Shown in pieces: positions 13,941 through 63,595 of a DNA stretch of 64,000 bases. The notes under the pieces were generated by a model that had not been told where the DNA came from, ran no database searches, and saw only the letters and a program-made list of their open reading frames with translations. Position 1 is the stretch's first letter, and every line of letters begins with the position of its first letter. A program made the position numbers and the translations under genes. Origin of the DNA: an uncultured Bacilli bacterium (GTDB lineage: Bacteria; Bacillota_I; Bacilli_A; RF39; UBA660); NCBI GenBank assembly GCA_944363785.1, contig CALVVF010000001.1:2474-66473 (forward strand), written 5' to 3'.

Positions 13941-16900
13941 ATGTATAGAAAATTAAAACAATTTAAAAAAGATTTACGGATAATGGAAAAATATTATCGT
14001 TATTTAGTAAAACTAACTTCATCCCATCAAACAATCGGTGCCTTTAATGAATGGATTCTCGATAACTATGCGTCCATCTTAGAACACGAAAATATGGTAC
14101 TAGAGTATTATGGGGATGAAAAACTAATGTTATCTTCTAAGAGTAGTAGTGATATCATATGGAATTGCTTAAGTACGTATTTAGAGGGTAGTCATTATAA
14201 AATGTCGAAGAAAAACTTAATTCGCTGTTTTACCCAATATCAAAAGAATAATAATATTTCTTTTACTTACAGAGAATTATTGTTGATTCGCCCGATCCTT
14301 TCTATGATTGTCGTTCATAAAATGCGACTTCTTTGCGATATCGAAAAACATAACTTAGAAGAAAAAAGACGTGCAGAAAAAGATATTAAATACGTAGAAA
14401 AGAAACTACAAAAAAATAAAAATGCATCTATTCATCAATATATTTCTATCCAAGAAGATATTATTGAATATCCTGTTTGTTTAGAATATTTAAACGAAAA
14501 TCTTCATCGGTTGAACCGGGAAGCAAGTACTCTTTTTTACGAGTTAAATGAAAACTTAGAGAAGAATAATACCAATTTAAAGAAAGTATTAAATAGTGTA
14601 TATCAAAATCAAATCAATAATCATTTAATCATCAGTAATTTATTTCATATATTGAAATTAAATGAGAATTTAAAACTAGAAACTTTATACGAAGAAATCA
14701 GTGATACTGAAAAAGGGTTAAATACAGATAAAATCTATAAGGCAATGTCATCAGATACGAAAGATAGTTATCGTAGTCAGATCATTAAGAATGCCAAAAA
14801 GAAAAAAGTAAATGAATTGATCTATGCTAGACGTTTAATTGCTAAAGGGGAAAAAGAAAAGAAACATATTGGTTTTTTCTTATTTAAAGAACCGAATATC
14901 CATAGAAGAGAAGTTATTTATATTGTATCTATCGTTATGTTAACGACGATACTTTCTTACTTTCTATCTACCTTTTTAACTCCTTACTGGTTGCTTGGTA
15001 TTTTGATTTTATGGATTCCTACTAGTGAAGTGATTATTCAAATTCTCAATCATTTTTTAACTCGTCTTTGCAGACCGAAAGCACTACCTAAAATGGATTA
15101 TTCTAAAGGGTTAAAAGAGGATACAGCCGTTATGGTAGTTATTCCTACGATCTTAAAAGATACGAAAAAAATTGATGAAATGTATCGTAACTTAGAGACT
15201 TGTTACTTAGCCAACAAAACAAAGCATTTATACTTTACCTTATTGGGAGACTGTAGTGAACAGAAGCAACCTACAGTTAAATTGGATGAAGAAGTAGCTA
15301 ACTATGGCGTATTAAAAGCCAAAGAGTTAAATGAAAAGTATCAGGCAAATATCTTTTATTTTGCTTATCGTAATCGAGTATGGCACGAAAGTGAAGAGTC
15401 TTATCTTGGATGGGAACGAAAACGTGGAGCTTTAATTCATTTTAATTCTTTACTACTTCATAAATTCTCTAATGAAGAAAAAAAGAAACATTTCAGAGTA
15501 GAAACCTTATCCTCTCTAAAAGCCAAAATTAAGTACGTAATTACCTTAGATGCCGATACTAAATTAGTCGTAAATAGTGTAACAGACTTAGTAGGAACGA
15601 TGAACCATCCACTTAATCGACCTGTCTTAAATAAAGAACGAAATAAAGTAATAAGTGGTTATGGGATCATTCAACCTAAACTAAGTGTCGATGTCGAATC
15701 ATCCAATAAATCGATGTATGCAGAATTATTTGCTGGTTTAGGTGGTTTCGATGTCTATAATACCCTTGTTTCTAACTTCTATCAGGATGTTTTTCATGAA
15801 GGTAGTTTCATGGGTAAAGGGATCTATGATTTAAAAACCTATGATGAAGTAGTCACTCATCGTTTTCCTGAACAACTTATTCTAAGTCATGATTTGGTGG
15901 AAAGTAATTTACTTCATAGTGGCTATACTTCAAACATCGAGTTGTTTGATGACTTTTGTAGTCGTTACTTAACCGATATGACGAGACATCATCGTTGGAT
16001 GAGAGGGGATGTACAAGTAACAGGATGGTTATTCCCAACGGTAAGAGATGAAAGTGGTAAAAAATATCATAACCCTATGACTTTGATAGAAAAATGGAAA
16101 ATCTTCGATAATATTCGTCGCGGGTTCATCGAATTTTTCTTATTACTCATTTTATTGATCGCGTATTTCAACAGTCATATTAGTCTTACTTGGTGGGGAC
16201 TTTATATCATTTTAATTATTGCCTTACCAGTCATCTTTTATCTAATCGAAAAACTACGTCATCAATTTAATCGTAAAGTGAAAGTAAAACCATATACAAA
16301 TATTATTAAAAGTGGTGAAGCAGTAATCATAAGAACCGTTATTTCCTTTACGACTATTCCTTATAAAGCCAATTTATACTTGAATGCAACAGCCAAATCT
16401 CTTTATCGAATGTTTATCAGTAAAAAGAAACTATTAAATTGGTTAACGGCTGAAGAAGCAGAAAAAACAGTAAGTAATACCTTAACCAATTACATCGAAA
16501 ACTTTAAACCTAACTATGTAGTGATTGCAATTTTGATTATCTTTACTTATCTATTTCAAAATCAAAATCTAGTATCCGCTATGTGTATTAGTTTAGCTTT
16601 TGCTTTAGGACCATATATTACGTATTATATTAGTAAAGAATCAAGAAGAAGTAGATTTCAACTAGCTCGTAGTGAAAAAGAAGAGTTTAGAAAGTTAGCC
16701 TATAAAACTTGGAAATTCTTTGAAGAAAATCTAACGGAAGAAAATCATTATTTAATTCCTGATAATTATCAAGAAAATAGAGATAATAAAGCAGATAATA
16801 AAACATCGCCAACCGATATTGGCTATTCGCTAACTTCTGTAGTTTCTGCTTATGAACTAGGGTTTATCAGACGAGAAAAAGCCCTATTTTACTTAGAACA

Positions 16901-19900
16901 CATCTTAGATACAGTCGAACAATTAGATAAGTGGCATGGACACTTGTACAATTGGTATAACATTCATCATCTACAAGTGTTATTCCCTCATTTTATCTCT
17001 AGTGTCGATAGTGGGAATTTCGTTGCTTCTTTGATCGTAGTAAAAGAATTCTTATTGAAATTAAAAGAAGATAAATTAGCTCTAACGGTAAAAAAGATGA
17101 TCGACGATGCTGACTTTTCAAAATTATACACAGAAGATGACGTCTTTAGTGTCGGCTATAACGATTTAGAAAATGAATTATCCGTCTACAAATATAACCG
17201 TTTTGCGAGTGAGAGTAGATTACTTAGTTATGTGGCAATTGCTAAAGGTGATGTTCCTAGTAAGCATTGGTTCTGTTTAGATAAAACTCTAACCAAATAT
17301 AAACTACATAAGGGCTTAGCTTCTTGGGCAGGATCTTTATTCGAATATTACATGCCATTAATCTTTATGAAATCTTATCCAAATACTTTATTGGATGAAA
17401 GTTATGACTTTGCTTATGTTTGTCAACGCGCATACATGAGAGATAGAAAACCTAACTTCCCATGGGGAATTTCAGAATGTGCTTATGATGAGTTAGACAA
17501 TGGAATTAACTATAAATATAAAACTTTCTCCATTCCTTATTTAAAACTACAAGAAGTAGAAGATGAAAGAATTGTCATCTCTCCTTATAGTTCATTATTA
17601 GTCGTTACCGAAAAACCAAAAGAAGTCTATCATAATTATCAACGATTAAAGAAATTGAATTTAGAGTCTAATTATGGTTTATATGAATCCTTTGATACTG
17701 AGACTAATCGTCCTGTTTATGCTTATTTTTCTCATCATCAAGGAATGATTTTAGCATCACTAACCAATTATTTAACCGATGGAGTAATTCAGGATTTATT
17801 CATGGAAGATACCAATAATCAAGCATTTGAAATTCTAACGAAAGAAAAGATCCAATTAAATCCTGTTATCGATTGGAAGATTGCGAAATATAAGCGCTTT
17901 AACTACCAAAAAGAAGTCGTGGAAAACGATATGCGTTATTTTACTTACCCATCTAGTATCCCTGAAGTATCTGCCATATCGAATGGAAAATATACTGTCT
18001 TAATGAACGATCGTGGAGATGGCTTTAGTCGTTATAAAGAACTCCAACTTAATCGTTACCGTAAAGTAACTGAACAAGACTATGGAACTTTCTTATATTT
18101 AAAAGATGTCAAGACTGGAAAATATTGGTCAAATACCTATGCCCCAATCAATAAAAAACCAGAAAAGTACGAAGTAGTTTTTGCTTCTGACCGGCTAAAA
18201 TATGTCTTAGTCGAAAACGATATTGCGACAACAACAGAAATTGTCGTCAGTACGACTTATCAAGCAGAAATTCGCAAAGTAACCATTAAGAATAATGCGA
18301 AAGAGGTAAAGACAATCGAACTTACGACTTATCTAGAACCGACAATCATCGAAAATGTAAGTGATGTTACCCACAGAACATTCAATAGTTTATTTTTAGA
18401 AAGTGAATTCGATCTCGATACTGAGTCCCTCATCATGAAAAAAACCGTAAGAAACAGTGAGAATAACTATTACTTACTTCATCGCTTACATATACCAGAT
18501 AGAATAGAAGAATATAGTTGGGAAACGAGAAGAGATCTCTTTATCGGTAGAAACCATACCGCTAAAGACCCAATTGCCTTATTCAAAAACCTATCAAATA
18601 AAACCAAAACTCCAATCGATCCGGTAATGAGCATGCGTAGTCGTATTGTCCTTGAACCAGAAGAATCTCAAGAAATCTACATTCTAAACTGCTTTGGTAC
18701 AAGTAGAAAACAAGTAATCGAAGCAGCAAAGAACTATGAAGATCCATTAAAAATAGAAGAAGCTTTTGAAATAGCGACAATTACTAATGTCAACAGCATG
18801 AAGAAATTAAATATCACCGGAGAAGACATGCGTCTTTATAACATCATGTTAAATTACTTGTATCAAACGAGTAGAATGAATATTAATGATCAAAGAAAAG
18901 AACTACTAAAAGAAAACCAACTTTCTCAAGAAAACCTATGGAAATTTGGTATTTCTGGAGATAGACCGATGATTACCTTGACGATTCATGATCTTAATTC
19001 CCTAAGTTTAGCAAAACAAGTATTAAAAGCTTATGAATATTTCAAAAATAAAGGCATTTATGTAGATATTATTTTAATTAATGCCGAAGAAAATCCATAT
19101 GATAAAAACTTGAAAAAAGCCATCAACTTTGTGATTTATCAAATTCAAAAGACCAATTCTTTTGGATCTAGACCAGGCAATATTTATTATATTGAACAGG
19201 AAAAATTAACTCGTGAAGAAGAAATCTTATTGAATACAGTAGCTAGACTACGTTTAGATAGTAGAGAGACTTCATCATTAAAAGCTTATATTGAATCTCT
19301 ACAAAGTCAAAATAGTGCTAGTAACTATAAAGTAATTCAAAAACAAGATACGATTAAGATTCCATTCGATGAAAAAGAACTTACTTATTTTAATGGCTAT
19401 GGTGGTTTTGCTAAAGAGGGAAAAGAATATGTGATCATTAATGAACTTACACCAACTCCTTGGACCAATATTTTAGCTAATCAACAGTTTGGTACTTTAA
19501 TAACCAACAATGCAGCAGGCTTTACTTATGCGTATAATAGTCAAGACTTTAAACTTACTTCATGGACCAATGATATTGTATCTTTTGATCAATCTGAGGG
19601 TATTAGAATCAACGATGAGAGCTTTAATCCAGTAATTACCAGACATGGTTTTGGTTATACCACATTCCTTAGTGAAACAGAACAATTTAAAGAAGAATTA
19701 ACAGAGTTTGTTGCCGAAGAGGAAAAAGTAAAATTCTATCGTTTCCAAATTACCAATAAAACCGATAAAGAAGAGATTCGTCTTACTTTCTGGATGAACC
19801 CAGTACTAGGAAATCTAGAAGAAAAAACGAGTCGTTATATCTTAACCGAAGAAAGAAAAGAAGAAAATTATTTAGCTCTTAAAAACGTCTATCAAAAAGA

Positions 19901-21620
19901 GTATCGGGATCAAACGGTATTCTTAACTAGTAGTGAAAAAATTGATCGTATGAATACAAAACAAATATTAGTAAAATCAATCGAAGTAGATATCCAAGTA
20001 CCAAAAGGAAAAACAAAGACCATTACTTTCTTACTTGGATGTGGAAAAGAAGACGAAATTAAAAAAGTAATTAAGCAATTTCCTACTCAGGAAAGTATTG
20101 ACTTAGAATTAGAACGTGTTCAAACGTATTGGGATAAAACTTTAAGTAAAGTACAAGTAGAAACCCCAGATACTAGCCTAAATTACATGTTAAATGGTTG
20201 GTACTTATATCAGACACTAGTCGGTAGAATAATGGCTAGAGCTGGTTTTTACCAAGTAAGTGGTGCATTTGGTTACCGTGATCAATTACAAGACTCTATT
20301 AATGTTTGTCCTATTTATCCAGAGATGACTAGACGTCAGATATTAAATAATGCTAAACATCAATTTAAAGAAGGAGATGTTCTTCATTGGTGGTTAGAAC
20401 CGAAAAATTTTGGTTTAAGAAGTCGGTTTAAAGATGATTATCTCTGGTTAGTTTATGCGACGAGTGAATATTTAAAATATACTTCAGATACGGATATTTT
20501 ATTTGAAAAAGTACCGTTTATAGTAGGAGAGGCATTAGCGGATTATGAAGAAGAAAAGGGTGTAAGCTTTACTTTCTCTGAACAAGAAGAAACCGTATAT
20601 GAACATTGTCGTCTAGCTATCGAAAGAACCCTACATGATCTAGGAAAACATGGTTTACCTAAAATGGGTGGTGGCGATTGGAACGACGGAATGAATAAAA
20701 TTGGTATTCATGGTTTAGGAGAGAGTGTTTGGTTAGGTTTCTTCTTCTATGATCTACTAGAACGTTTTATTCAGATTACTCATCTTTACGATGACAAACT
20801 AGAAGTTACTACTTATCAAAAAGCCAAAGAACAATTAAAAGAAAAATTGAATAAAGAAGCTTGGGATGGAGAATACTACTTAAGAGCCTTCTTTGATAAT
20901 GGCGAACTAGTTGGTTCTAAAACAAGTGAAGAATGTAAGATTGATTTGATCTCACAAAGTTTCTCTATTTTATCAGAAGTAATTCCACAAGAAAGAAAAG
21001 AAAGTGTATTAAATGCCGTTCGGAAATATTTAGTGGATAAGAAAACAGGTATAGTTAAACTATTGACCCCAGCCTTTAAAAACTCGAAAAATTATCCAGG
21101 TTATATCATGGATTATCCAATTGGAGTTCGTGAGAATGGTGGTCAGTATACCCATGCCGTTTCTTGGTATGTGATGGCTTTACTAAAAGAAAATAAATTC
21201 GACGAAGCTTACGACATCTATCAAATGGTAAACCCAATCAATCACACCAACACCGATAAAGAAGTAGAAACTTATATGGTAGAACCGTATGTCATTGCGG
21301 CGGATATTTATTCTAATCCTGATCACAAAGGTCGTGGTGGTTGGACATGGTATACCGGATCTAGTGGATGGTTTTACCGAGTTGGATTAGAATACATTTG
21401 TGGATTCACACTTCGTGGTCAAGAATTAGTCATTGCGCCTCATATGCCAACTAAATGGAAGATATTGAAGATCAATTATCACTATTTAGATACGATGTAT
21501 CAAATTACCATTTCCAAAGAACAAAAACCAAAGATAGTTGTGGATGGTAAGAAACAAGATAAGATTTTCTTGGTGAATGACGGAAAAACTCATCAAGTAG
21601 AAATAGGGGTGGATAGATGA
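13941..21620 (+). CDS. Cyclic beta-1,2-glucan synthase-like (Cgs/NdvB/ChvB): GT84, TM region, cyclisation domain, GH94 phosphorylase
   Basis: EWILDNY, GWERKRG, TLDADT, LSHDLVES, RHHRWMRGD; PDNYQE, TSPTDIG, GHLYNWY, WGISEC; GAFGYRDQLQD, GGDWNDGMN, ENGGQYTHA, GGWTWYTGSSGW. Confidence 0.93.
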   Translation: MYRKLKQFKKDLRIMEKYYRYLVKLTSSHQTIGAFNEWILDNYASILEHENMVLEYYGDEKLMLSSKSSSDIIWNCLSTYLEGSHYKMSKKNLIRCFTQYQKNNNISFTYRELLLIRPILSMIVVHKMRLLCDIEKHNLEEKRRAEKDIKYVEKKLQKNKNASIHQYISIQEDIIEYPVCLEYLNENLHRLNREASTLFYELNENLEKNNTNLKKVLNSVYQNQINNHLIISNLFHILKLNENLKLETLYEEISDTEKGLNTDKIYKAMSSDTKDSYRSQIIKNAKKKKVNELIYARRLIAKGEKEKKHIGFFLFKEPNIHRREVIYIVSIVMLTTILSYFLSTFLTPYWLLGILILWIPTSEVIIQILNHFLTRLCRPKALPKMDYSKGLKEDTAVMVVIPTILKDTKKIDEMYRNLETCYLANKTKHLYFTLLGDCSEQKQPTVKLDEEVANYGVLKAKELNEKYQANIFYFAYRNRVWHESEESYLGWERKRGALIHFNSLLLHKFSNEEKKKHFRVETLSSLKAKIKYVITLDADTKLVVNSVTDLVGTMNHPLNRPVLNKERNKVISGYGIIQPKLSVDVESSNKSMYAELFAGLGGFDVYNTLVSNFYQDVFHEGSFMGKGIYDLKTYDEVVTHRFPEQLILSHDLVESNLLHSGYTSNIELFDDFCSRYLTDMTRHHRWMRGDVQVTGWLFPTVRDESGKKYHNPMTLIEKWKIFDNIRRGFIEFFLLLILLIAYFNSHISLTWWGLYIILIIALPVIFYLIEKLRHQFNRKVKVKPYTNIIKSGEAVIIRTVISFTTIPYKANLYLNATAKSLYRMFISKKKLLNWLTAEEAEKTVSNTLTNYIENFKPNYVVIAILIIFTYLFQNQNLVSAMCISLAFALGPYITYYISKESRRSRFQLARSEKEEFRKLAYKTWKFFEENLTEENHYLIPDNYQENRDNKADNKTSPTDIGYSLTSVVSAYELGFIRREKALFYLEHILDTVEQLDKWHGHLYNWYNIHHLQVLFPHFISSVDSGNFVASLIVVKEFLLKLKEDKLALTVKKMIDDADFSKLYTEDDVFSVGYNDLENELSVYKYNRFASESRLLSYVAIAKGDVPSKHWFCLDKTLTKYKLHKGLASWAGSLFEYYMPLIFMKSYPNTLLDESYDFAYVCQRAYMRDRKPNFPWGISECAYDELDNGINYKYKTFSIPYLKLQEVEDERIVISPYSSLLVVTEKPKEVYHNYQRLKKLNLESNYGLYESFDTETNRPVYAYFSHHQGMILASLTNYLTDGVIQDLFMEDTNNQAFEILTKEKIQLNPVIDWKIAKYKRFNYQKEVVENDMRYFTYPSSIPEVSAISNGKYTVLMNDRGDGFSRYKELQLNRYRKVTEQDYGTFLYLKDVKTGKYWSNTYAPINKKPEKYEVVFASDRLKYVLVENDIATTTEIVVSTTYQAEIRKVTIKNNAKEVKTIELTTYLEPTIIENVSDVTHRTFNSLFLESEFDLDTESLIMKKTVRNSENNYYLLHRLHIPDRIEEYSWETRRDLFIGRNHTAKDPIALFKNLSNKTKTPIDPVMSMRSRIVLEPEESQEIYILNCFGTSRKQVIEAAKNYEDPLKIEEAFEIATITNVNSMKKLNITGEDMRLYNIMLNYLYQTSRMNINDQRKELLKENQLSQENLWKFGISGDRPMITLTIHDLNSLSLAKQVLKAYEYFKNKGIYVDIILINAEENPYDKNLKKAINFVIYQIQKTNSFGSRPGNIYYIEQEKLTREEEILLNTVARLRLDSRETSSLKAYIESLQSQNSASNYKVIQKQDTIKIPFDEKELTYFNGYGGFAKEGKEYVIINELTPTPWTNILANQQFGTLITNNAAGFTYAYNSQDFKLTSWTNDIVSFDQSEGIRINDESFNPVITRHGFGYTTFLSETEQFKEELTEFVAEEEKVKFYRFQITNKTDKEEIRLTFWMNPVLGNLEEKTSRYILTEERKEENYLALKNVYQKEYRDQTVFLTSSEKIDRMNTKQILVKSIEVDIQVPKGKTKTITFLLGCGKEDEIKKVIKQFPTQESIDLELERVQTYWDKTLSKVQVETPDTSLNYMLNGWYLYQTLVGRIMARAGFYQVSGAFGYRDQLQDSINVCPIYPEMTRRQILNNAKHQFKEGDVLHWWLEPKNFGLRSRFKDDYLWLVYATSEYLKYTSDTDILFEKVPFIVGEALADYEEEKGVSFTFSEQEETVYEHCRLAIERTLHDLGKHGLPKMGGGDWNDGMNKIGIHGLGESVWLGFFFYDLLERFIQITHLYDDKLEVTTYQKAKEQLKEKLNKEAWDGEYYLRAFFDNGELVGSKTSEECKIDLISQSFSILSEVIPQERKESVLNAVRKYLVDKKTGIVKLLTPAFKNSKNYPGYIMDYPIGVRENGGQYTHAVSWYVMALLKENKFDEAYDIYQMVNPINHTNTDKEVETYMVEPYVIAADIYSNPDHKGRGGWTWYTGSSGWFYRVGLEYICGFTLRGQELVIAPHMPTKWKILKINYHYLDTMYQITISKEQKPKIVVDGKKQDKIFLVNDGKTHQVEIGVDR

Positions 21621-22962: not shown

Positions 22963-24504
22963 ATGGATAAGATATTAAAAAAGAAATACGTACTTATTAT
23001 TATGATTTTAGCTGTTGTATGTATTTTGGCAGGTACTTCCTATGCCTATTTTACCGCAATGGCAGATTCTGATGATCAGATTGTCGATAGTGGAGTATTA
23101 CGGTTAACTTATCATACGGGGCAAAATATTGCTTTAGATAGTGTGTTCCCAGGAGAAGAAGCAGATGCCGGAATTCATGAGTTTACGATTGAGAATACGG
23201 GGACCTTAGAAGCAACCTATTATCTATATTTATCTAATGTAGTACTTCAAAAAGATGGGCAAGCTACCCAAAGTGAAAACTTGAAATGGAAATTATATAG
23301 TGCAGATGCAGATTATACGGAGCAAGAAGAAATTGCTTCTGGAGATTTTTCAGATGGTAGTAATACGATTGAACTTGATACGGATATAATCATTCAACCC
23401 CAAGAAAAACACTATTATATTTTAAAAATTTGGTTACAAGAAACCGGAAAACTACAAAATGAAGATCAAAGATTAAATTTAAGTACAATCGTAGAAGCAA
23501 CGACGATCAAGAAGAACATTAATAAAACCTTGATTAATACAATCAAAGGAGAAGCAGCACTTGATAATATAGCTAGTGAATTTGTTACTAGTTCCTCAGG
23601 AATAGACTTTTCACAAATCTCAAGTGATACAAATGGAAAAGGATTATATATTTTACATGGAACCGAAAATAATCCTAATCCAATCATGTATTACCGAGGA
23701 GCTGTAAAAAACAACAATGTAAAATTTGCGAACTTCTGTTGGAAAATTGTAAGAACAACCGAAACCGGAGGAGTAAAGTTAATTTATAATGGTAGTCCTG
23801 ATAGTAATGGACAATGTACTAATACTACAGGAAGTTCAACTGTGATACAAAATAGTGCATTTAATACTAATCTTAATGACAATGCTTACGTAGGTTATAT
23901 GTATGGGACATCAGAATCGTCTACTTATGAGGAAACACATAAAAATACGAATGATTCAACGATTAAGACGATAATCGATGAATGGTATAGGCAAAATATG
24001 ACAGAATATACTGAAGATCTTGAAGATACGGTATGGTGTAATGATCGAAGTGTAGTACAAGATAGTAGTTATTCAGGTACTGGTGCAGGAAAAGAAAGAA
24101 CAATGTATGGACCTAAGAATAGATTAGATACAAATAAAATTCCAAGTTTAGCTTGTGTAAATGAAAACGATCGATTTACAGTCAGTAGTGAGAATGGAAA
24201 TGGGGTCTTAACGTATCCAGCTGCATTATTAACAGCCGATGAATTTGTATATGCAGGAGCAGTTTATGGGCAAGGCAACAGTAATTATTATTTGTATAAT
24301 AATTATTCTTTGTGGTCTTTGTCGCCTAGCTATTTTAGTAGTAGCAATGCTGAAACCTTCAACGTGAATTCGGCAGGTTATCTCAGCAACCACTACACCC
24401 ACAATGCCTACGGCGCGCGTCCTTCCATATCTTTAAAGAAGGGAATTAAAGTAGAACTAGGAGGAGACGGAACAGCAGAAAATCCATATGTTGTAGTTGA
24501 ATAG
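22963..24504 (+). CDS. Secreted protein: SipW/TasA-like class-2 N-module plus head with DGR-target-like (C-type lectin fold) C-terminus
   Basis: Signal ending GTSYAYFTA; FTIENTGTL, LKWKLY, YILKIWLQETG..QNEDQ; C-terminal LWSLSP...GARPSISLK; paralogous to 60540 and 62072 over full length. Confidence 0.8.
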   Translation: MDKILKKKYVLIIMILAVVCILAGTSYAYFTAMADSDDQIVDSGVLRLTYHTGQNIALDSVFPGEEADAGIHEFTIENTGTLEATYYLYLSNVVLQKDGQATQSENLKWKLYSADADYTEQEEIASGDFSDGSNTIELDTDIIIQPQEKHYYILKIWLQETGKLQNEDQRLNLSTIVEATTIKKNINKTLINTIKGEAALDNIASEFVTSSSGIDFSQISSDTNGKGLYILHGTENNPNPIMYYRGAVKNNNVKFANFCWKIVRTTETGGVKLIYNGSPDSNGQCTNTTGSSTVIQNSAFNTNLNDNAYVGYMYGTSESSTYEETHKNTNDSTIKTIIDEWYRQNMTEYTEDLEDTVWCNDRSVVQDSSYSGTGAGKERTMYGPKNRLDTNKIPSLACVNENDRFTVSSENGNGVLTYPAALLTADEFVYAGAVYGQGNSNYYLYNNYSLWSLSPSYFSSSNAETFNVNSAGYLSNHYTHNAYGARPSISLKKGIKVELGGDGTAENPYVVVE

Positions 24505-57601: not shown

Positions 57602-59008
57602 ATGAAAATAATGAAAAAAATAAGGCCCAAACTAAAATATATAATCATCCCGGTATTATTTCTTTGTCTATGTGCGATAAGTAGTTCCTATTCATATTAT
57701 AAGTTAACTAAGGAAAATAAAAATGCCCTAACGTTAAATGGGGTAGAATTAGACTATACGATTACTTCGGATAGTTTAGAAAATAAAACGATTCAAGTAC
57801 CAGCTGGTTCTAAACAAACAATTACTTTCGATGTAACAAGTAATAATGAAAAGGATGCAGAATATGAAGTGTATTATCAAATCATAGAAGCACTAAGTCA
57901 GGAAGAAAAAGAGAAGATCAGTGTTACTTGTTATGAAAATATTAGTGAGAGTTTACCAACCGGTGAGATAACACCAGACGGAGTTAAAACGATTATTGTC
58001 GAAATAGAAAACAACAGTACATCCCCTGTAACGATTGAATTAGGTTGTCAAGGTGGATTAATAGGAAGAGACCTAGTCCTAGAACAAGGAAATAAGATCC
58101 CAGTTGTCTCTATCCCAATCTTACAAAGTGAAGATTCCAATGAAGCTTTCTGGCAGTACAAAAGTTCAATTACTAAAGTAATATTCCAAAACCAAAAACA
58201 AAGTATAAGTAATGCCGCATATCAACATGATATTTCCGAAGCAAACGATGGTAGTATTATGGCTTATTTAGTATTAAACAGCGATCAATCAACTTATACA
58301 GCTTATATCCAAAGTGATGGGGTTATGCAAGCTAATTCGGATTGTTATGAGTGGTTTGCGGATTTTAGCAATTTGCAAAGTATCGAAGGCTTAGAGTATT
58401 TTGATACTTCACAAGTGACAAGTATGTGGATGATGTTTTTTAATTGTAGAGGGCTAACCAACTTAGATCTACGTAATTTCGATACAAGCAAGGTGACAGT
58501 TACAAGCTCCATGTTTGGTTGGTGTACTAATTTGACGAGTTTAGATATCAGTAATTTTAATACTTCACAAGTAGATAATATGGCTTCAATGTTTGAAGGT
58601 TGCCAAAGCCTAACAAGTCTAGATTTAAGTCATTTCGATACTTCATAAGTGACAGACATGTCTAGTCTCTTTTGGTACTGCGATGCTTTAGTGCAAGTAG
58701 ATGTCAGTAGTTTCGACACATCAAAAGTGGAAAATATGGGTGGTATGTTTAATGAGTGTAGGAGTTTAACTACTGTAGATTTAAGTAATTTTGACACCAC
58801 ACAAGTAACCAATATGTGGAAGATGTTCGATAACTGTTTTAGTTTAACTAGCTTAGATTTAAGAAATGCTACTTTTACAGCAGTAACTGACTCTAGGGAG
58901 ATGTTTGGTAACAACCCATCTAACATCCAAATTATTGTAAAAGATGCTACAGCTCAAACTTGGATAAAAGACAAGTTAGGAAGTGAAGGTAGCGTAATTA
59001 TTGCTTAA
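57602..59008 (+). pseudogene. Class-1 N-module plus BspA LRR gene interrupted by in-frame TAA at 58646-58648
   Basis: GAT ACT TCA TAA GTG where sister repeats read GAT ACT TCA CAA GTG (DTSQV); frame continues to a C-terminus homologous to the 43879 protein (IVKDATAQ.WI). Confidence 0.88.
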
Positions 59009-59539
59009 TCGTAACATTGATATAAGAAAGGAATGATACTTAAAATGAAAAAAATAAAGCCCAAATTAAAATATATAATTATTGCGGTATTATTTATCTG
59101 TTTATGTGCAATCAATAGTTCTTATTCTTATTATAAATTAACCAAAGAAAATAAAAATGCCTTAACGTTAAATGGAGTAGAATTAACGTATACGATTACC
59201 TCGGATAGTTTAGAAAATAGAAAAATCCAAGTACCGTCTGGTTCTAAACAAACAGTGACAATGAATATAACAAGCAATAATGAAAAGGACACGGAATATG
59301 AAGTCTATTATCAAATTATGGAAGCACTAAGTCAGGAAGAAAAAGAGAAAATTAGTGTGGTTTGTTATGAAAATATTAGTGAGAGCTTACCGACCGGGGA
59401 GATAACACCAAACGGCACTAAAACGATTATTGTTGAAATAGAAAATAACAGTACATCTCCTGTAACAATTGAATTAGGTTGCCAAGGCGGATTAATAGGA
59501 AGAGAGCTAGTCTTAGAACAAGGGAATAAGATCCCTGTT
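57611..59539 (+). repeat. Direct repeat pair of 495 bp (57611-58105 and 59045-59539) encoding the class-1 N-module
   Basis: Colinear, highly similar DNA and protein from MKKI.PKLKY to GNKIPV, then abrupt divergence. Confidence 0.9.
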
Positions 59540-60523
59540 ACCATCGCTATCAGAGAATTAGTGGAGATGATAAAACCAGAAGCAGTATTGGATAATATTC
59601 AAAGTACTTATGTAAGCAGTCCTACAGGAATTGATTTTTCACAAACATCAAGTGATACAAACGGAAAAGGACTATATATTTTACATGGAACAGAAAATGA
59701 TGCTAATCCAATCATGTATTACCGAGGGGATGTAAAAAATAACAATGTAAAATTCGCAAACTTCTGTTGGAAAATAGTTAGAACAACGGAAACAGGAGGA
59801 GTAAAGCTAATCTATAATGGTAGTCCAAATAATAATGGGCAATGTACAGCTTGGGGAAGTTCATCGATGTTATCAGACAGTGTTTTTAATACGAATGATA
59901 ATGACAACGCATATGTCGGCTATATGTATGGTACAGCGGGATCATCTACTTATGAAGAAACACATAAAAATACGAACGATTCAACGATTAAGACGGTAAT
60001 TGATGAGTGGTATAGTCGAAATATGACAGAATATACAGATCAGTTAGAAGATACAGTGTGGTGTAATGATCGAAGCATTTCCCCATTTGATTCAGGAACA
60101 GGAGCGGGTGCAGATTATACAGATTATGGAGCAAGATACAGATTAATGATAAATAAGATACCTACTTTAGAATGTGTAAATGAAAATGATCGTTTCACAG
60201 TAAGTAGTGAGAATGGTAATGGGGCTTTAACTTATCCGATTGCGTTATTAACAGCAGATGAAATCGCATATGCAGGTATAATTGATGGGAGAGAGAATAA
60301 GAATAATTATTATTTGGATAATGCTGATCTCTGGTGGACTATGTCCCCTAACTATTTCTATAGCTACGATGCTCGTGTGTACTTTCTGAACACAACGGAT
60401 AGCCTCAGCTACTCCAGCTCATCCAATTCCGTCGGTGTGCGTCCCTCTATTTCTCTTAAGAAAGGCACTAAAGTAGAAAGCGGAGAAGGAACAGTAGAAA
60501 ATCCTTATGTTATACTTGAATAA
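59033..60523 (+). CDS. Secreted protein: class-1 N-module plus head with DGR-target-like C-terminus
   Basis: Signal ending SSYSYYKL; head shared with 22963; WWTMSP...GVRPSISLK. Confidence 0.82.
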   Translation: MILKMKKIKPKLKYIIIAVLFICLCAINSSYSYYKLTKENKNALTLNGVELTYTITSDSLENRKIQVPSGSKQTVTMNITSNNEKDTEYEVYYQIMEALSQEEKEKISVVCYENISESLPTGEITPNGTKTIIVEIENNSTSPVTIELGCQGGLIGRELVLEQGNKIPVTIAIRELVEMIKPEAVLDNIQSTYVSSPTGIDFSQTSSDTNGKGLYILHGTENDANPIMYYRGDVKNNNVKFANFCWKIVRTTETGGVKLIYNGSPNNNGQCTAWGSSSMLSDSVFNTNDNDNAYVGYMYGTAGSSTYEETHKNTNDSTIKTVIDEWYSRNMTEYTDQLEDTVWCNDRSISPFDSGTGAGADYTDYGARYRLMINKIPTLECVNENDRFTVSSENGNGALTYPIALLTADEIAYAGIIDGRENKNNYYLDNADLWWTMSPNYFYSYDARVYFLNTTDSLSYSSSSNSVGVRPSISLKKGTKVESGEGTVENPYVILE

Positions 60524-60539
60524 AGTAGGAGGGAGTAAT

Positions 60540-62057
60540 ATGAAAAAGAAGAAAATAATCGTTTGTGTATTGATTATAGTTGGTGTTTTAGCTTTAATAG
60601 GTATAAGTTATGCCTATTTTACAGCTTTGGAAAACTCGGATGAACAAATAGTGAAAAGTGGTGTACTAAGTCTAACCTATACAAATGGAAAGAATATATT
60701 ATTAGAAAATATAATTCCTTCTGAAGAAACAGAAGCTGGTATTCATGAATTTACGATAGAAAATACTGGGACCTTAGATGCAATATATTATTTATATTTA
60801 GATAATATTACCCTACAGAAAGAGGGAGAAGATACCCAGAGTAGTAATTTAAAATGGAAATTATATAGTGCCGATGAAGATTATACAGAGCAAGACGTAA
60901 TTGCTTCTGGAGATTTTTCGGACGGGAACAACACAATTGAACTAGATACGGATATTGCGATTGCCCCTCAAGAGAAACACTACTATATTTTAAAGATTTG
61001 GTTACAAGAAACCGGTGAATTACAAAATGAAGATCAGGGATTAAAATTTAGTACGATAGTTGAAGCAACAACGGTGAAAAAGAAAGTGAATAAAGCCCTA
61101 GTAAACGTGATTAAAGAAGAAGCAGTACTCGATAATATCGCTAGTGAGTTTGTTACTAGTTCTACAGGTATTGATTTTAGTCAAGTATCTAGTGATACTA
61201 ACGGTAAAGGTGTATATATCTTGCATGGAACAGAAAGTAACCCTAACCCAATTATGTATTACCGAGGAGATGTAAAAAATAATAATGTAAAATTCGCAAA
61301 CTATTGTTGGCAGATTGTAAGAACGACCGAAACAGGTGGAGTGAAATTAATTTATAATGGAGAGCCAGACGCAAGCGGAGCTTGTAATTCAGCTGCTAAA
61401 GAGATAGCTTTTAGTACTTTCAATAATAGGGATATATATACTAATGCTGGAGTTGACTATATGTACGGTAGTACAGATATTTCAGCTACTTACGAAGAAA
61501 TGCATACCAACATAAATGATTCGGCAATTAAAACTGTAATTGATGGTTGGTACGAAGAAAATATGACAGAGTATACAGATAAGTTAGAGGATACAGTATG
61601 GTGTAACGATAGAAGTATCTCCTTGAACTCACCAGGCGATGGAACAGATATTGAGGATGATACTCAATACGGAGCTTATTATCGATTATATGACAATAAA
61701 ACACCTAGTTTAGAATGTGTAAATCCTAATGACCGTTTTACCGTAAGCGAAGAGAATGGAAACGGTGCCTTAACCTATCCAGTAGCCTTATTAACAGCGG
61801 ATGAGGTGGCCTATGCGGGAGGAGTACACCAACAAAAAAGCAACACCTATTTAGCTACAAAAGACCATGTTTGGACACTATCACCTGGTTTTTATAGTCC
61901 AACGATAGCATATCATTTCACCCACGATATAGATGGACTTGAGATTGCGGTGTATGGTCAATTGAATGTTAGACCTTCAATTTCCTTAAAACGTGGAGTC
62001 AAAGTGACAGCTGATGGAGACGGAACCGCTGACAATCCATATATAGTAGTTGAATAG
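60540..62057 (+). CDS. Secreted protein: class-2 N-module plus lectin-like head
   Basis: RBS GGAGG before ATG 60540; GISYAYFTA; VWTLSP...NVRPSISLK. Confidence 0.82.
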   Translation: MKKKKIIVCVLIIVGVLALIGISYAYFTALENSDEQIVKSGVLSLTYTNGKNILLENIIPSEETEAGIHEFTIENTGTLDAIYYLYLDNITLQKEGEDTQSSNLKWKLYSADEDYTEQDVIASGDFSDGNNTIELDTDIAIAPQEKHYYILKIWLQETGELQNEDQGLKFSTIVEATTVKKKVNKALVNVIKEEAVLDNIASEFVTSSTGIDFSQVSSDTNGKGVYILHGTESNPNPIMYYRGDVKNNNVKFANYCWQIVRTTETGGVKLIYNGEPDASGACNSAAKEIAFSTFNNRDIYTNAGVDYMYGSTDISATYEEMHTNINDSAIKTVIDGWYEENMTEYTDKLEDTVWCNDRSISLNSPGDGTDIEDDTQYGAYYRLYDNKTPSLECVNPNDRFTVSEENGNGALTYPVALLTADEVAYAGGVHQQKSNTYLATKDHVWTLSPGFYSPTIAYHFTHDIDGLEIAVYGQLNVRPSISLKRGVKVTADGDGTADNPYIVVE

Positions 62058-62071
62058 AAGGTGAGAGTAAG

Positions 62072-63595
62072 ATGAATAAGAAGACTTTAATTGTTTGTTT
62101 ATTAATTGTAGCTGTTACTTTAATTTTAATGGGAGCAAGCTATGCCTATTTTACGGCTATAGGAACTTCTGATGAACAGGTAGTACAAAGTGGTGTGTTA
62201 GAGCTAACATATTTAACCGGTAAAGATATTACATTAGAAGGTATTTTTCCATCAGAAGAGGTAGATGCAGGAGTTCATCAGTTTGCGGTTGAAAATACCG
62301 GTACTTTAGATGCAACATATTATATGTATTTAGATAATATTGTTCTACAAAAAAATGGACAAGATACCCATAGTGAAAACTTGAAATGGAAACTATATAG
62401 TGCCGATGAAAATTATATAGAGCAAAGCGAGATAATAAACGGTAGTTTCATAGATGGAAATAGTACGATCGAACTAGATACTGAATTAGCTATTCGTCCA
62501 GGTGAGAAACATTATTATATTCTAAAAATATGGTTACAAGAAACCGGACAAGCACAAAATGAAGATCAAGGTTTAACTTTTAGTGCGCAAGTAATTGCAA
62601 CGACAGAACAGAAAACCATTAATAAAGCTTTGGTAGATACCATTAAAACAGAAGCAGTACCAGATAATATCGCTAGTGAGTTTGTTACTAGTCCTACAGG
62701 AATTGACTTTGGGAGGTTTTCTAGTGATACGAACGGCAAAGGATTATACACTGTACATGGAACAGAAAATAATCCTAATCCCATTATGTATTATCGTGGA
62801 GATGTAAAAAACAATAATGTAAAATTTGCGAACTTCTGTTGGAAAATAGTTAGAACGACCGAGACTGGTGGAGTGAAGTTAATCTATAATGGAGAACCTG
62901 ATGAAAATGGACAGTGTACGGCAATGTGGGATGATACTACTATAGGAACTAGTAGCTTTAATGCTAATAGTAATGACAATGCCTATGTAGGCTATATGTA
63001 TGGAACGCCAGGTTCATCTACTTATGAAGATACACATAAAAATACGAATGATTCAACAGTTAAATCAGTAATCGATACATGGTATAGTGAGAATCTAGCT
63101 TCTTATACAGCTAAACTAGAGGATACCGTATGGTGTAATGATCGAAGTTTCACATCCGGAACAGGAATAGGAAATACAGAAACAGCTTATAGTCCATATA
63201 GTAGGATTTTAGCTAGGGAACAACCAACTTTAGAATGTTCAAATGAAAACGATCGTTTCACGGTAAGTGAAGCAAACGGTAATGGAGCTTTAACCTATCC
63301 AATTGCCTTATTAACTGCAGATGAAGCAGTATATGCTGGTACATTACCATTAATTACACAAACCAATAAAGATCATTATTTATATAATAATGATACATGG
63401 TGGCTTCTTTCTCCTTATTGGCATTATGAAGACGATGCACGTGTAATGGTTATTTATCAAAGTGGCAATCTAGGTAATGATAATGTCTTTGATGGCGATT
63501 ACTGTGGGGTTCGTCCTGCCATTTCCCTCAAAAAAGGAACTAAAGTAGAAGCTGGAGGAGACGGAACGGTAGAAAATCCTTATGTCGTTAAATAA
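62072..63595 (+). CDS. Secreted protein: class-2 N-module plus lectin-like head
   Basis: GASYAYFTA; WWLLSP...GVRPAISLK. Confidence 0.82.
   Translation: MNKKTLIVCLLIVAVTLILMGASYAYFTAIGTSDEQVVQSGVLELTYLTGKDITLEGIFPSEEVDAGVHQFAVENTGTLDATYYMYLDNIVLQKNGQDTHSENLKWKLYSADENYIEQSEIINGSFIDGNSTIELDTELAIRPGEKHYYILKIWLQETGQAQNEDQGLTFSAQVIATTEQKTINKALVDTIKTEAVPDNIASEFVTSPTGIDFGRFSSDTNGKGLYTVHGTENNPNPIMYYRGDVKNNNVKFANFCWKIVRTTETGGVKLIYNGEPDENGQCTAMWDDTTIGTSSFNANSNDNAYVGYMYGTPGSSTYEDTHKNTNDSTVKSVIDTWYSENLASYTAKLEDTVWCNDRSFTSGTGIGNTETAYSPYSRILAREQPTLECSNENDRFTVSEANGNGALTYPIALLTADEAVYAGTLPLITQTNKDHYLYNNDTWWLLSPYWHYEDDARVMVIYQSGNLGNDNVFDGDYCGVRPAISLKKGTKVEAGGDGTVENPYVVK

What the first reader, a model, noticed from the sequence alone, without database searches (positions are those of the whole stretch)
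60332..60448. Second DGR-like variable region, colinear with the one 36 kb upstream
Seen: 9 of 11 codons end in C (AGC CTC AGC TAC TCC AGC TCA TCC AAT TCC GTC, 60401-60433), then GGTGTGCGTCCC. It aligns gap-free (39 codons) with 24310-24426. In the 10 codons from CTC, third positions match in 9 while positions 1-2 vary, the opposite of normal drift and consistent with a template like CTC ARC AAC AAC AAC ACA AAC AAT ACC AAC. The 5' half also differs at third positions, so different templates or older events are possible. Inference: multi-target DGR activity on dispersed chromosomal paralogs.
Basis: partly seen in the sequence, partly recalled or inferred. Interest (0 to 1): 0.8.

Follow-up and report, generated by a model that had tools for sequence, protein, structure and literature searches.

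The report
Relic DGR variable region in paralogs
The C-rich patch at the end of this secreted-protein gene is the scar of a retroelement (DGR) that once rewrote it, but no matching template is in this genome and the patch now looks frozen, so it is a real but fairly ordinary case of a known system.

Summary
Window 60401-60433 has 9 of 11 C-ending codons, against 53 of 486 in the rest of the gene. Only five frames in the genome reach that density, and all five are this family's C-terminal patch.

The patch (60335-60445) ends ORF 59033-60523. This is one of 11 paralogs with a DUF6273/C-lectin-like C-terminal domain.

Two same-genus genomes (G048, G303) carry a DGR cassette whose AAC-rich template is codon-for-codon colinear with the patch. 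Among six colinear copies here, template-adenine columns vary far more than other columns (pairwise diversity 0.61 vs 0.27, p=6e-9). The DGR origin is therefore well supported.

Current activity is not supported:
- No cognate template was found at 90, 60 or 42 nt.
- The genome's only RT (contig C32) has an unrelated template.
- Each copy has 9-16 private changes at 74 non-adenine columns, where in-register variable regions (VRs) in relatives have none.
- The post-stop hairpin that follows the in-register VRs is missing.
- The VR is nearly unchanged in contigs from three studies.

Best reading: a frozen, drifting DGR footprint (about 0.7). The rival is a live target of an unassembled cassette (about 0.2). 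This is a new member of a known kind.

The parts
59033..60523 (+). Gene P0001 (496 aa): secreted or surface paralog with an N-terminal signal/TM segment and a C-terminal DUF6273/C-lectin-like domain
   Evidence: ORF, translation. DUF6273 hit at residues 421-476, 23.2 bits against a cut-off of 23.5. Model of residues 175-496 has pLDDT 93. Fold matches.
60335..60445 (+). DGR-type variable-region footprint: 37 codons, colinear with the templates of G048 and G303
   Evidence: Against the G048 TR, 18/32 template-adenine columns are substituted but so are 28/79 non-adenine positions. 16/58 mismatches at columns where the two TRs agree and are non-A.
60401..60433 (+). Run of 9/11 C-ending codons: NNC codons left from AAC template codons
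60434..60445 (+). GC-rich 3' end of the VR (GGTGTGCGTCCC). It corresponds to the last 12 bases of TR/VR homology in relatives, an IMH-like position
22963..24504 (+). Gene P0002 (513 aa), a paralog 36 kb upstream
24313..24423 (+). Partner footprint in P0002. It retains the unmutated core TTCAACGTGAATTCG, identical to the L053 template
   Evidence: 11/32 adenine columns substituted, 21/79 non-A mismatches to the G048 TR
60507..62057 (+). Tandem paralog directly downstream of P0001. Its VR-equivalent is AT-rich (C3 3/37), with no footprint. It leaves no room for a post-stop hairpin after P0001
62072..63595 (+). Second tandem paralog. DUF6273 scores above the cut-off (27.4 bits). Its VR-equivalent is AT-rich (C3 5/37)

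Best explanation
Window 60335-60445 is a relic (frozen) variable region of a diversity-generating retroelement.

The gene belongs to an 11-member paralog family of secreted proteins. Their C-terminal DUF6273/C-lectin-like domain is a DGR target in this genus. In the past, an AAC-rich template RNA of the type still present in G048 and G303 was reverse-transcribed with errors at adenines. The cDNA replaced the 3' end of the gene. This left NNC codons, hypervariable codon positions 1-2, and a GC-rich island in a 31% GC genome.

In this genome the copy is no longer being rewritten. Its cognate template and RT are not in the assembly, it lacks the post-stop hairpin that accompanies in-register targets, and it has since drifted by ordinary point mutation.

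Shown: the footprint, the homologous templates, the drift, the stability across samples. Inferred: the past homing events, the role of the hairpin, and that duplication without the hairpin froze the variants.
For: 1. Footprint. C3 is 9/11 inside the run against 53/486 outside. The genome's only five frames with 9 or more of 11 C-ending codons are all this family.

2. Homologous templates with Avd-like ORF and RT in the same genus. G303 has the full order target-TR-Avd-RT, and its VR differs from its TR at 15 adenines and 0 other positions. A further template sits next to a family-domain target in L053.

3. With columns classified only by the G048 TR, the six colinear G000 copies have pairwise diversity 0.612 at 32 A-columns and 0.27 at 79 non-A columns (Mann-Whitney p=6e-9). 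Outside the VR, codon positions 1/2/3 give 0.195/0.178/0.383.

4. No cognate template. Adenine-tolerant scans of the whole assembly at 90, 60 and 42 nt returned only A-rich background.

5. Drift. VRs in register with their TR in G048 and G303 have 0/58 mismatches at TR-conserved non-A columns. G000 copies have 9-21/58, and P0001 has 16/58. Each copy has 9-16 private deviations at 74 non-A columns, mostly at third positions.

6. Hairpin. CCACGAAA-ACCC-TTTCGTGG follows the stop codon of the VRs that are in register with a known TR (G048-L072, G303, L053). It is absent from the window (0 matches at up to 2 mismatches). In G000 it exists only as one broken copy, after the C2 paralog.

7. In G048, of six paralogs examined (of 10 matches), only the hairpin-bearing one is in register (0/79). 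The others have 11-43/79 non-A mismatches.

8. Stability. Contigs from three studies span the VR with 1/768, 3/864 and 14/1167 differences, and none of the 40 listed differences (686 more not shown) lies in the VR. P0004 (98% identical) and P0005 (88-90% identical) differ in the VR at 2 and 1 residues. P0002's VR is unchanged in its 99%-identical cluster-mate except A485V.
Against: - The assembly is about 95% complete and its smallest contig is 6.3 kb. A short TR-Avd-RT contig could have been left out.
- Contig C18 ends inside a TnpB-like ORF at the place where G303 has the cassette beside the small-ORF/TrmB pair.
- All three strain-level VR substitutions (D446Y, S461Y, S462N) fall on codons that are AAY in the templates. 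This could be low-level DGR action rather than selection.
- Logan contigs are consensus sequences and hide minority variants. The only raw-read run (X9) laid only 29 reads, none at 95% identity or more, so within-population diversity is untested.
- The need for the hairpin is inferred from its co-occurrence with in-register VRs, not shown.
Confidence: 0.7

Rival explanations
1. The VR is a live remote target. A cognate TR-Avd-RT cassette exists in this organism but was not assembled or binned, for example beyond the IS at the end of contig C18, and it still rewrites P0001 and other paralogs occasionally.
For: C18 breaks in a TnpB-like ORF where G303 carries the cassette. The smallest contig is 6.3 kb and completeness is 94.7%. 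The strain-level VR substitutions hit AAY-derived codons in 3 of 3 cases. G048 shows that one template can have VRs on other contigs.
Against: The six copies each carry 9-16 private non-adenine deviations, so a single template could currently match at most one of them. There is no hairpin after P0001 or P0002. The VR is nearly identical in contigs from three studies. A homing event would change many adenine columns at once, not one or two (established DGR behaviour, recalled). No better-fitting template turned up among 28 metagenomic TRs of this family; the best had 16-28 non-A mismatches.
Confidence: 0.2
2. The DGR on contig C32 (the genome's only RT) diversifies the window VRs.
For: It is a complete cassette (target, Avd-like ORF, TR, RT) in the same genome.
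Against: Its TR is unrelated in sequence to the window VRs. A scan with the C32 TR finds only its own two VR copies on C32, and the next best hits have 38 or more incompatible positions out of 125. Its target is a different, prepilin-like protein.
Confidence: 0.02
3. There is no DGR history. The patch reflects selection for Ser/Tyr/Asn-rich binding loops, local codon bias, or gene conversion among paralogs.
For: The region is a surface-exposed hairpin of a binding domain where diversifying selection is expected. Paralogs could exchange segments.
Against: Amino-acid selection does not explain C-ending synonymous codons in a genome with 9.7% C3. Variation is concentrated on the columns that are A in independently found templates. 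Those templates are codon-colinear and sit beside RTs. Gene conversion would homogenise the copies, not diversify positions 1-2.
Confidence: 0.03

Closest known systems
DGR cassettes of same-genus genomes G048 and G303 (target-hairpin-TR-Avd-like-RT)
   Same: Same protein family and domain. The template is codon-colinear with the window VR (37 codons). Same GC-rich 3' end position. NNC codon signature.
   Different: There the VR differs from the TR only at adenines (0/58 and 0/79 non-A mismatches) and is followed by an intact hairpin. Here there are 16/58 mismatches, no hairpin, and no template or G048-type RT in the assembly.
DUF6273-domain DGR targets of gut phages (Faecalibacterium prophages; 'tentaclins')
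   Same: DUF6273 domain described as C-lectin-like, with the VR at its C-terminal part forming a surface beta-hairpin (passages read in PMC11792537 and PMC10743442). The P0001 model matches phage DUF6273 proteins in BFVD (E down to 3e-5).
   Different: Those are phage tail or receptor-binding proteins next to their cassette. These are chromosomal, multi-copy cellular genes among housekeeping genes (GH94, PGI, Ham1, SpoIIP) with a different N-terminal part.
Remote variable proteins and CLec paralogs of cyanobacterial DGRs (PMC7517822, passages read)
   Same: Intragenomic duplication and dispersal of DGR target domains. The paralogs have varying VR/TR homology, always near the 3' end.
   Different: Those genomes still hold the DGR. 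Here the cognate cassette is not found, and the decay is measured column by column against templates of sister species.
Bordetella phage BPP-1 Mtd / Treponema denticola TvpA (classical C-lectin-fold variable proteins)
   Same: C-terminal VR in a C-lectin-type fold. TvpA (2y3c) aligns at Z 5.0, 132 residues. Adenine-directed variation. GC-rich VR end and a downstream hairpin as cis elements (BPP-1 requirement recalled, not read here).
   Different: No detectable sequence similarity. The hairpin in this lineage lies about 115-135 nt downstream of the VR end, after the stop codon.
N-terminal DUF6273 domain of Thomasclavelia ramosa IgA peptidase (PDB 9qa6; PMC12402451, passages read)
   Same: Closest solved structure: Z 13.5, rmsd 3.6, 199 residues aligned, 14% identity.
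   Different: It is part of a metallopeptidase and is not known to be a DGR target. P0001 has no peptidase domain.

Membership tests
DGR variable region (target of mutagenic retrohoming) | Sits at the 3' end of an ORF, inside a ligand-binding (C-lectin-like/DUF6273) domain | tested here: met
   The VR 60335-60445 ends 78 nt before the stop of ORF 59033-60523.
DGR variable region (target of mutagenic retrohoming) | Variation concentrated at positions that are adenine in a template repeat | tested here: met
   Tested against homologous templates from other genomes, not a cognate one. Diversity is 0.612 at 32 A-columns and 0.27 at 79 non-A columns, p=6e-9. For P0001 alone: 18/32 against 28/79, Fisher p=0.036.
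DGR variable region (target of mutagenic retrohoming) | A cognate template repeat in the same genome that differs from the VR only at adenines | tested here: not met
   Adenine-tolerant scans at 90, 60 and 42 nt for all 11 paralogs found only A-rich background. blastn with two known TRs found only VRs and chance hits. Caveat: the assembly is 94.7% complete.
DGR variable region (target of mutagenic retrohoming) | No mismatches at non-adenine template positions (recent homing) | tested here: not met
   P0001 has 16/58 mismatches at columns where the G048 and G303 TRs agree and are non-A. VRs in register with their TR have 0/58. P0001 has 16 private deviations at 74 non-A columns.
DGR variable region (target of mutagenic retrohoming) | DGR-type reverse transcriptase (with accessory Avd) in the genome | tested here: inconclusive
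   One RT with an Avd-like ORF is on C32, but it has an unrelated TR. The G048-type RT was found in 2 of 11 same-genus genomes searched and not in G000, where only 27-37% identical matches to the C32 RT appear.
DGR variable region (target of mutagenic retrohoming) | Cis elements: GC-rich VR 3' end and a downstream hairpin | tested here: not met
   The GC-rich end is present (GGTGTGCGTCCC). The hairpin that follows the in-register VRs of G048-L072, G303 and L053 is absent from the window. In G000 it is present only as one copy with 2 stem-breaking changes after the C2 paralog. That it is required is an inference.
DGR variable region (target of mutagenic retrohoming) | VR hypervariable between or within populations | tested here: not met
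   Contigs of three studies have 1/768, 3/864 and 14/1167 differences, and none of the 40 listed differences (686 more not shown) lies in the VR. Close homologs differ at 1-2 VR residues. Within-sample diversity is not testable because the raw-read run lacked the organism.
Pfam DUF6273 (PF19789) | Match to the family HMM at the gathering threshold | tested here: inconclusive
   P0001 scores 23.2 bits against a cut-off of 23.5. The tandem paralog 62072-63595 scores 27.4 bits, above the cut-off. P0002 has no hit. Many homologs carry precomputed PF19789. Structure agrees: 9qa6 DUF6273 domain at Z 13.5 and phage DUF6273 proteins.
C-type-lectin-fold DGR variable proteins (Mtd/TvpA class) | C-lectin-like fold with the VR on the ligand-binding face | tested here: inconclusive
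   Lcl C-terminal domain at Z 6.2, TvpA (2y3c) at Z 5.0, and dozens of CTLDs at Z 4-5 covering model residues about 65-301. These Z values are below the level the tool calls decisive. The VR maps to strands 260-294 of the model. Surface exposure was not computed.

The most novel reading that the evidence does not exclude
The family records a 'diversify, duplicate, freeze' cycle. In this genus the DGR rewrites only the copy tagged by a conserved post-stop hairpin (CCACGAAA-ACCC-TTTCGTGG, about 115-135 nt beyond the VR). Duplications that leave the hairpin behind freeze individual VR variants. These accumulate as a hard-wired repertoire of six or seven differently tipped lectin-like proteins. 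The repertoire persists after the retroelement itself is lost or moves on an IS-flanked unit.

If so, the hairpin would be a distal target-selection signal, and orphan NNC patches would be a general way to detect past DGR activity in genomes that no longer have the element.
Probability: 0.35. Interest if true: 0.6.

Novelty: new member of a known kind. Interest (0 to 1): 0.4.

Why it matters
It shows that a DGR footprint can be recognised from raw sequence alone. The signs are NNC codons, reversed codon-position variability, and a GC island in an AT-rich genome. The footprint can then be dated relative to its template by counting non-adenine drift.

It extends DUF6273-type DGR targets from gut phages to a multi-copy chromosomal family in small-genome gut Bacilli.

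It also gives a concrete, testable idea of how DGR-made variants become fixed as paralogs. DGR surveys that require an RT next to the VR miss remote targets (passage read in PMC8144416), and by extension such orphan VRs.

The biology is otherwise that of a known system. Activity in this genome is not supported.

Tried and rejected
- **Template scans of the assembly.** Adenine-tolerant scans at 90, 60 and 42 nt for all 11 paralogs gave only A-rich background. Random 42-nt controls give a best of 2-5 incompatible positions, and the one near-hit on C3 is a 49% A intergenic stretch.
- **C13 hit.** The blastn hit of the L053 TR on C13 is a Q/E-rich coiled-coil ORF, a chance match.
- **C32 TR as template.** Rejected.
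- **Cassette remnants.** There are no remnants of TR, Avd or RT downstream of the C2 paralog that keeps the broken hairpin. Only unrelated housekeeping genes follow. The TR-leader motif was not found in G000.
- **Metagenome scan for a closer template.** It returned 28 TR-like stretches, none fitting G000 better than the G048 type. The pattern required all adenines and a fixed skeleton, so a divergent template would be missed.
- **Cis templates in other genomes.** Of 36 VR-equivalents in 64 homologous loci, only L053 had a template within the fetched flanks of up to 10 kb.
- **Raw reads.** Run X9 laid only 29 reads, none at 95% identity or more, so no within-population test was possible.
- **PDB by sequence.** No meaningful hit.
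- **Literature on orphan or relic VRs.** One query was too loose to be useful. 'diversity-generating retroelement' plus 'orphan' listed 10 of 24 papers, none visibly on this topic by title or abstract start. I make no claim that it is unpublished.
- **Not accessible.** Supplementary tables of DGR surveys, which may list this target family, could not be consulted.

Full report
**1. Observation**

The sequence is as described. Window 60401-60433 is in frame with ORF 59033-60523 (P0001, 496 aa). It has 9 of 11 C-ending codons, against 53 of 486 elsewhere in the gene (binomial p about 1e-7).

The genome is 31% GC, and C3 is 9.7% over 399,047 codons of long frames. Only five frames in the whole assembly reach 9 or more C-ending codons in an 11-codon window. 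All five are the same position of this gene family, and they include P0001 and P0002, the partner 36 kb upstream (ORF 22963-24504).

The two regions align gap-free in frame. In the ten codons from CTC the differences by codon position are 7/4/1. This is the most extreme window of the gene pair, whose overall pattern is the normal 163/131/214 of 481.

**2. The gene family**

tblastn finds 11 paralogs in the 1.38-Mb, 36-contig assembly. Four are in the window, including two tandem copies directly after P0001. One copy on C8 is interrupted by a stop.

Seven of the 11 share a GC-rich, NNC-codon patch with a common skeleton between the W-x-x-SP motif and G-V-R-P. The other four are AT-rich there.

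P0001 hits Pfam DUF6273 just under the cut-off (23.2 vs 23.5 bits). A tandem paralog scores above it (27.4), and many database homologs carry PF19789.

An AlphaFold model of residues 175-496 is confident (pLDDT 93.2, pTM 0.92). It matches:
- phage DUF6273 proteins (BFVD, E down to 3e-5);
- the DUF6273 N-terminal domain of the T. ramosa IgA peptidase (9qa6, Z 13.5, 199 residues);
- more weakly, Legionella Lcl (Z 6.2), the DGR variable protein TvpA (Z 5.0) and many C-type lectin domains (Z 4-5).

Published work describes DUF6273 as a C-lectin-like DGR target domain with the VR at its C-terminal end (passages read in PMC10743442 and PMC11792537).

The neighbouring genes are chromosomal housekeeping and surface genes: GH94, PGI, Ham1, SpoIIP and DUF285/PARCEL repeats.

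**3. Template search in this genome**

The assembly holds one RT, on contig C32. It is part of a complete DGR with target 3' end, Avd-like ORF, an Asn-rich TR and the RT. Its TR is unrelated to the window VRs. A scan with it finds only its own two VR copies on C32.

I ran adenine-tolerant scans of both strands of the whole assembly with the VR of each of the 11 paralogs, at 90, 60 and 42 nt. They found nothing beyond A-rich background. Random controls and inspection of the best near-hit confirm that it is background.

**4. Templates in relatives**

Of 64 homologous loci from gut Bacilli/'Tenericutes' MAGs, one (L053) has an AAC-rich template about 330 nt downstream of the homolog's VR. Over the 60-nt segment scanned, 12 of 13 mismatches are at template adenines. 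The RT-bearing cassette of that genome is on another contig (L068). It has its own, different TR and a target ending in the same domain type.

A 15-nt unmutated core is shared by that TR and P0002's VR. I searched it in 301 genomes of the order. It hit only G000 itself and the same-genus genome G048. There it is part of a TR followed by an Avd-like ORF and an RT. A second same-genus genome, G303, has the full order target-hairpin-TR-Avd-like-RT, and its target belongs to this family.

These TRs are codon-for-codon colinear with six G000 copies over 37 codons.

I used the G048 TR only to label columns. The six G000 copies then show pairwise diversity of 0.612 at the 32 adenine columns and 0.27 at the 79 other columns (Mann-Whitney p=6e-9). 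Outside the VR the usual third-position excess holds (0.195/0.178/0.383). This establishes a DGR origin for the patch.

**5. Is it active here?**

Several independent results say no.
- VRs in register with their TR have 0/58 mismatches at columns where the G048 and G303 templates agree and are non-adenine. G000 copies have 9-21/58, and P0001 has 16/58.
- Some of those mismatches could belong to a G000-lineage template. Even so, each copy has 9-16 private deviations from the six-copy majority at 74 non-adenine columns, mostly at third positions. This is ordinary drift. No single template could currently serve more than one copy.
- The VRs that are in register with a known TR (G048-L072, G303, L053) share a conserved hairpin just after the stop codon, about 115-135 nt beyond the VR end. 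The window has none. G000 has one copy, with two stem-breaking changes, after the C2 paralog.
- In G048, of six paralogs examined (of ten matches), only the hairpin-bearing one is in register (0/79). The rest have 11-43/79 non-adenine mismatches.
- Contigs from three studies span the P0001 VR with 1/768, 3/864 and 14/1167 differences. None of the 40 listed differences (686 more not shown) falls in the VR.
- P0004 (98% identical) and P0005 (88-90% identical) differ in the VR at only D446Y and S462N, and S461Y. P0002's VR is unchanged in a 99% identical protein except A485V.

**6. What keeps the rival alive**

- The assembly is 94.7% complete and has no contig under 6.3 kb.
- Contig C18 ends inside a TnpB-like ORF at the spot where G303 has the cassette next to an orthologous small-ORF/TrmB pair.
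- All three strain-level VR substitutions fall on AAY-derived codons.
- Logan contigs hide minority alleles, and the only raw-read run laid only 29 reads, none at 95% identity or more.

A metagenome scan for family templates found 28. None fits G000 better than the G048 type, with a best of 16-28 non-adenine mismatches.

**7. Mechanism and model**

Shown:
- the footprint;
- homologous templates next to RTs in the same genus;
- one template with VRs on other contigs in G048;
- drift and stability here.

Inferred: an ancestral or since-lost cassette of the G048/G303 type rewrote these 3' ends by adenine-mutagenic retrohoming. Copies that lost the hairpin were no longer targeted and froze as distinct variants, which then drifted. 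P0001 is one such copy, because the next paralog starts at its stop codon.

**8. Comparison and novelty**

DGR targets with DUF6273 domains, remote targets, and dispersed CLec paralogs with graded VR/TR homology are all described (passages read in PMC10743442, PMC11792537, PMC7517822 and PMC8144416). This case adds three things:
- a chromosomal multi-copy family in small-genome gut Bacilli;
- a column-wise measure of VR decay;
- a conserved distal hairpin that co-occurs with in-register VRs.

I file it as a new member of a known kind. The probabilities are about 0.7 for a frozen relic, about 0.2 for a live target of an unassembled cassette, and about 0.05 for other readings.

Noticed in passing
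G000 contig C32 (L001 = C32:1324-4881): A complete second DGR: target, Avd-like ORF (179 aa), Asn-rich TR and RT (375 aa). The target starts with a prepilin-like KKGFTLIELL N-terminus. The TR/VR pair shows adenine changes plus 2 non-adenine mismatches and a one-codon indel. The 7.7-kb contig is a 5,625-bp unit with target and Avd repeated at both ends and a 576-aa transposase-like frame, so it may be circular, tandem or an assembly artefact.
   Followed up: partly
L072, L077, L053, L028, L002 (downstream of family genes); G000 C2:79334-79353: A conserved hairpin, CCACGAAA-ACCC-TTTCGTGG, sits just after the stop codon of family genes. It follows the VRs that are in register with a known TR and also the family gene in L028. 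It has no T-run, so it does not look like a terminator. The only G000 copy has 2 stem-breaking changes.
   Followed up: partly
L053 (TR at 2793-2900) and L068, both genome G001: One genome has a DGR-type RT cassette with its own TR (L068). It also has a second, different TR beside another family-domain target (VWA/Flg_new protein) on a contig with no RT. This may be one RT serving two templates.
   Followed up: partly
G000 C18:22565-22918 (contig end): A TnpB-like (IS200/IS605-type, named from recall) ORF runs off the contig end. It lies next to the small-ORF/TrmB pair that flanks the DGR cassette in G303.
   Followed up: partly
G000 C8:31320-32846 (minus strand): One GC-rich-VR paralog is interrupted by a stop after about 100 codons (100 aa + 408 aa frames). 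It is probably a pseudogene or an assembly error.
   Followed up: no
window 22963-23100 and 59033-59150; other paralogs: The N-termini carry a hydrophobic segment followed by S/A-Y-A/S-Y-F/Y-T/K. This resembles SipW/TasA-type signal peptides (recalled, not tested). There are weak Peptidase_M73/camelysin hits, and the N-terminal 170-aa module also occurs in about a dozen other genes.
   Followed up: no
window 57602-59008: A DUF285/PARCEL-repeat surface protein is split into two adjacent ORFs (348 aa and 119 aa) just upstream of P0001.
   Followed up: no
L081-L108 (metagenome contigs): 28 contigs, many labelled human gut, carry TRs ending in the same NNNNVNN(T/S/N)NGVRP coding pattern, in several sequence variants. 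This template family is therefore widespread.
   Followed up: partly
window 13941-21620: A very large ORF (2,559 aa) with GH94 catalytic, supersandwich and glucoamylase-like domains (cellobiose or cyclic-glucan phosphorylase type).
   Followed up: no
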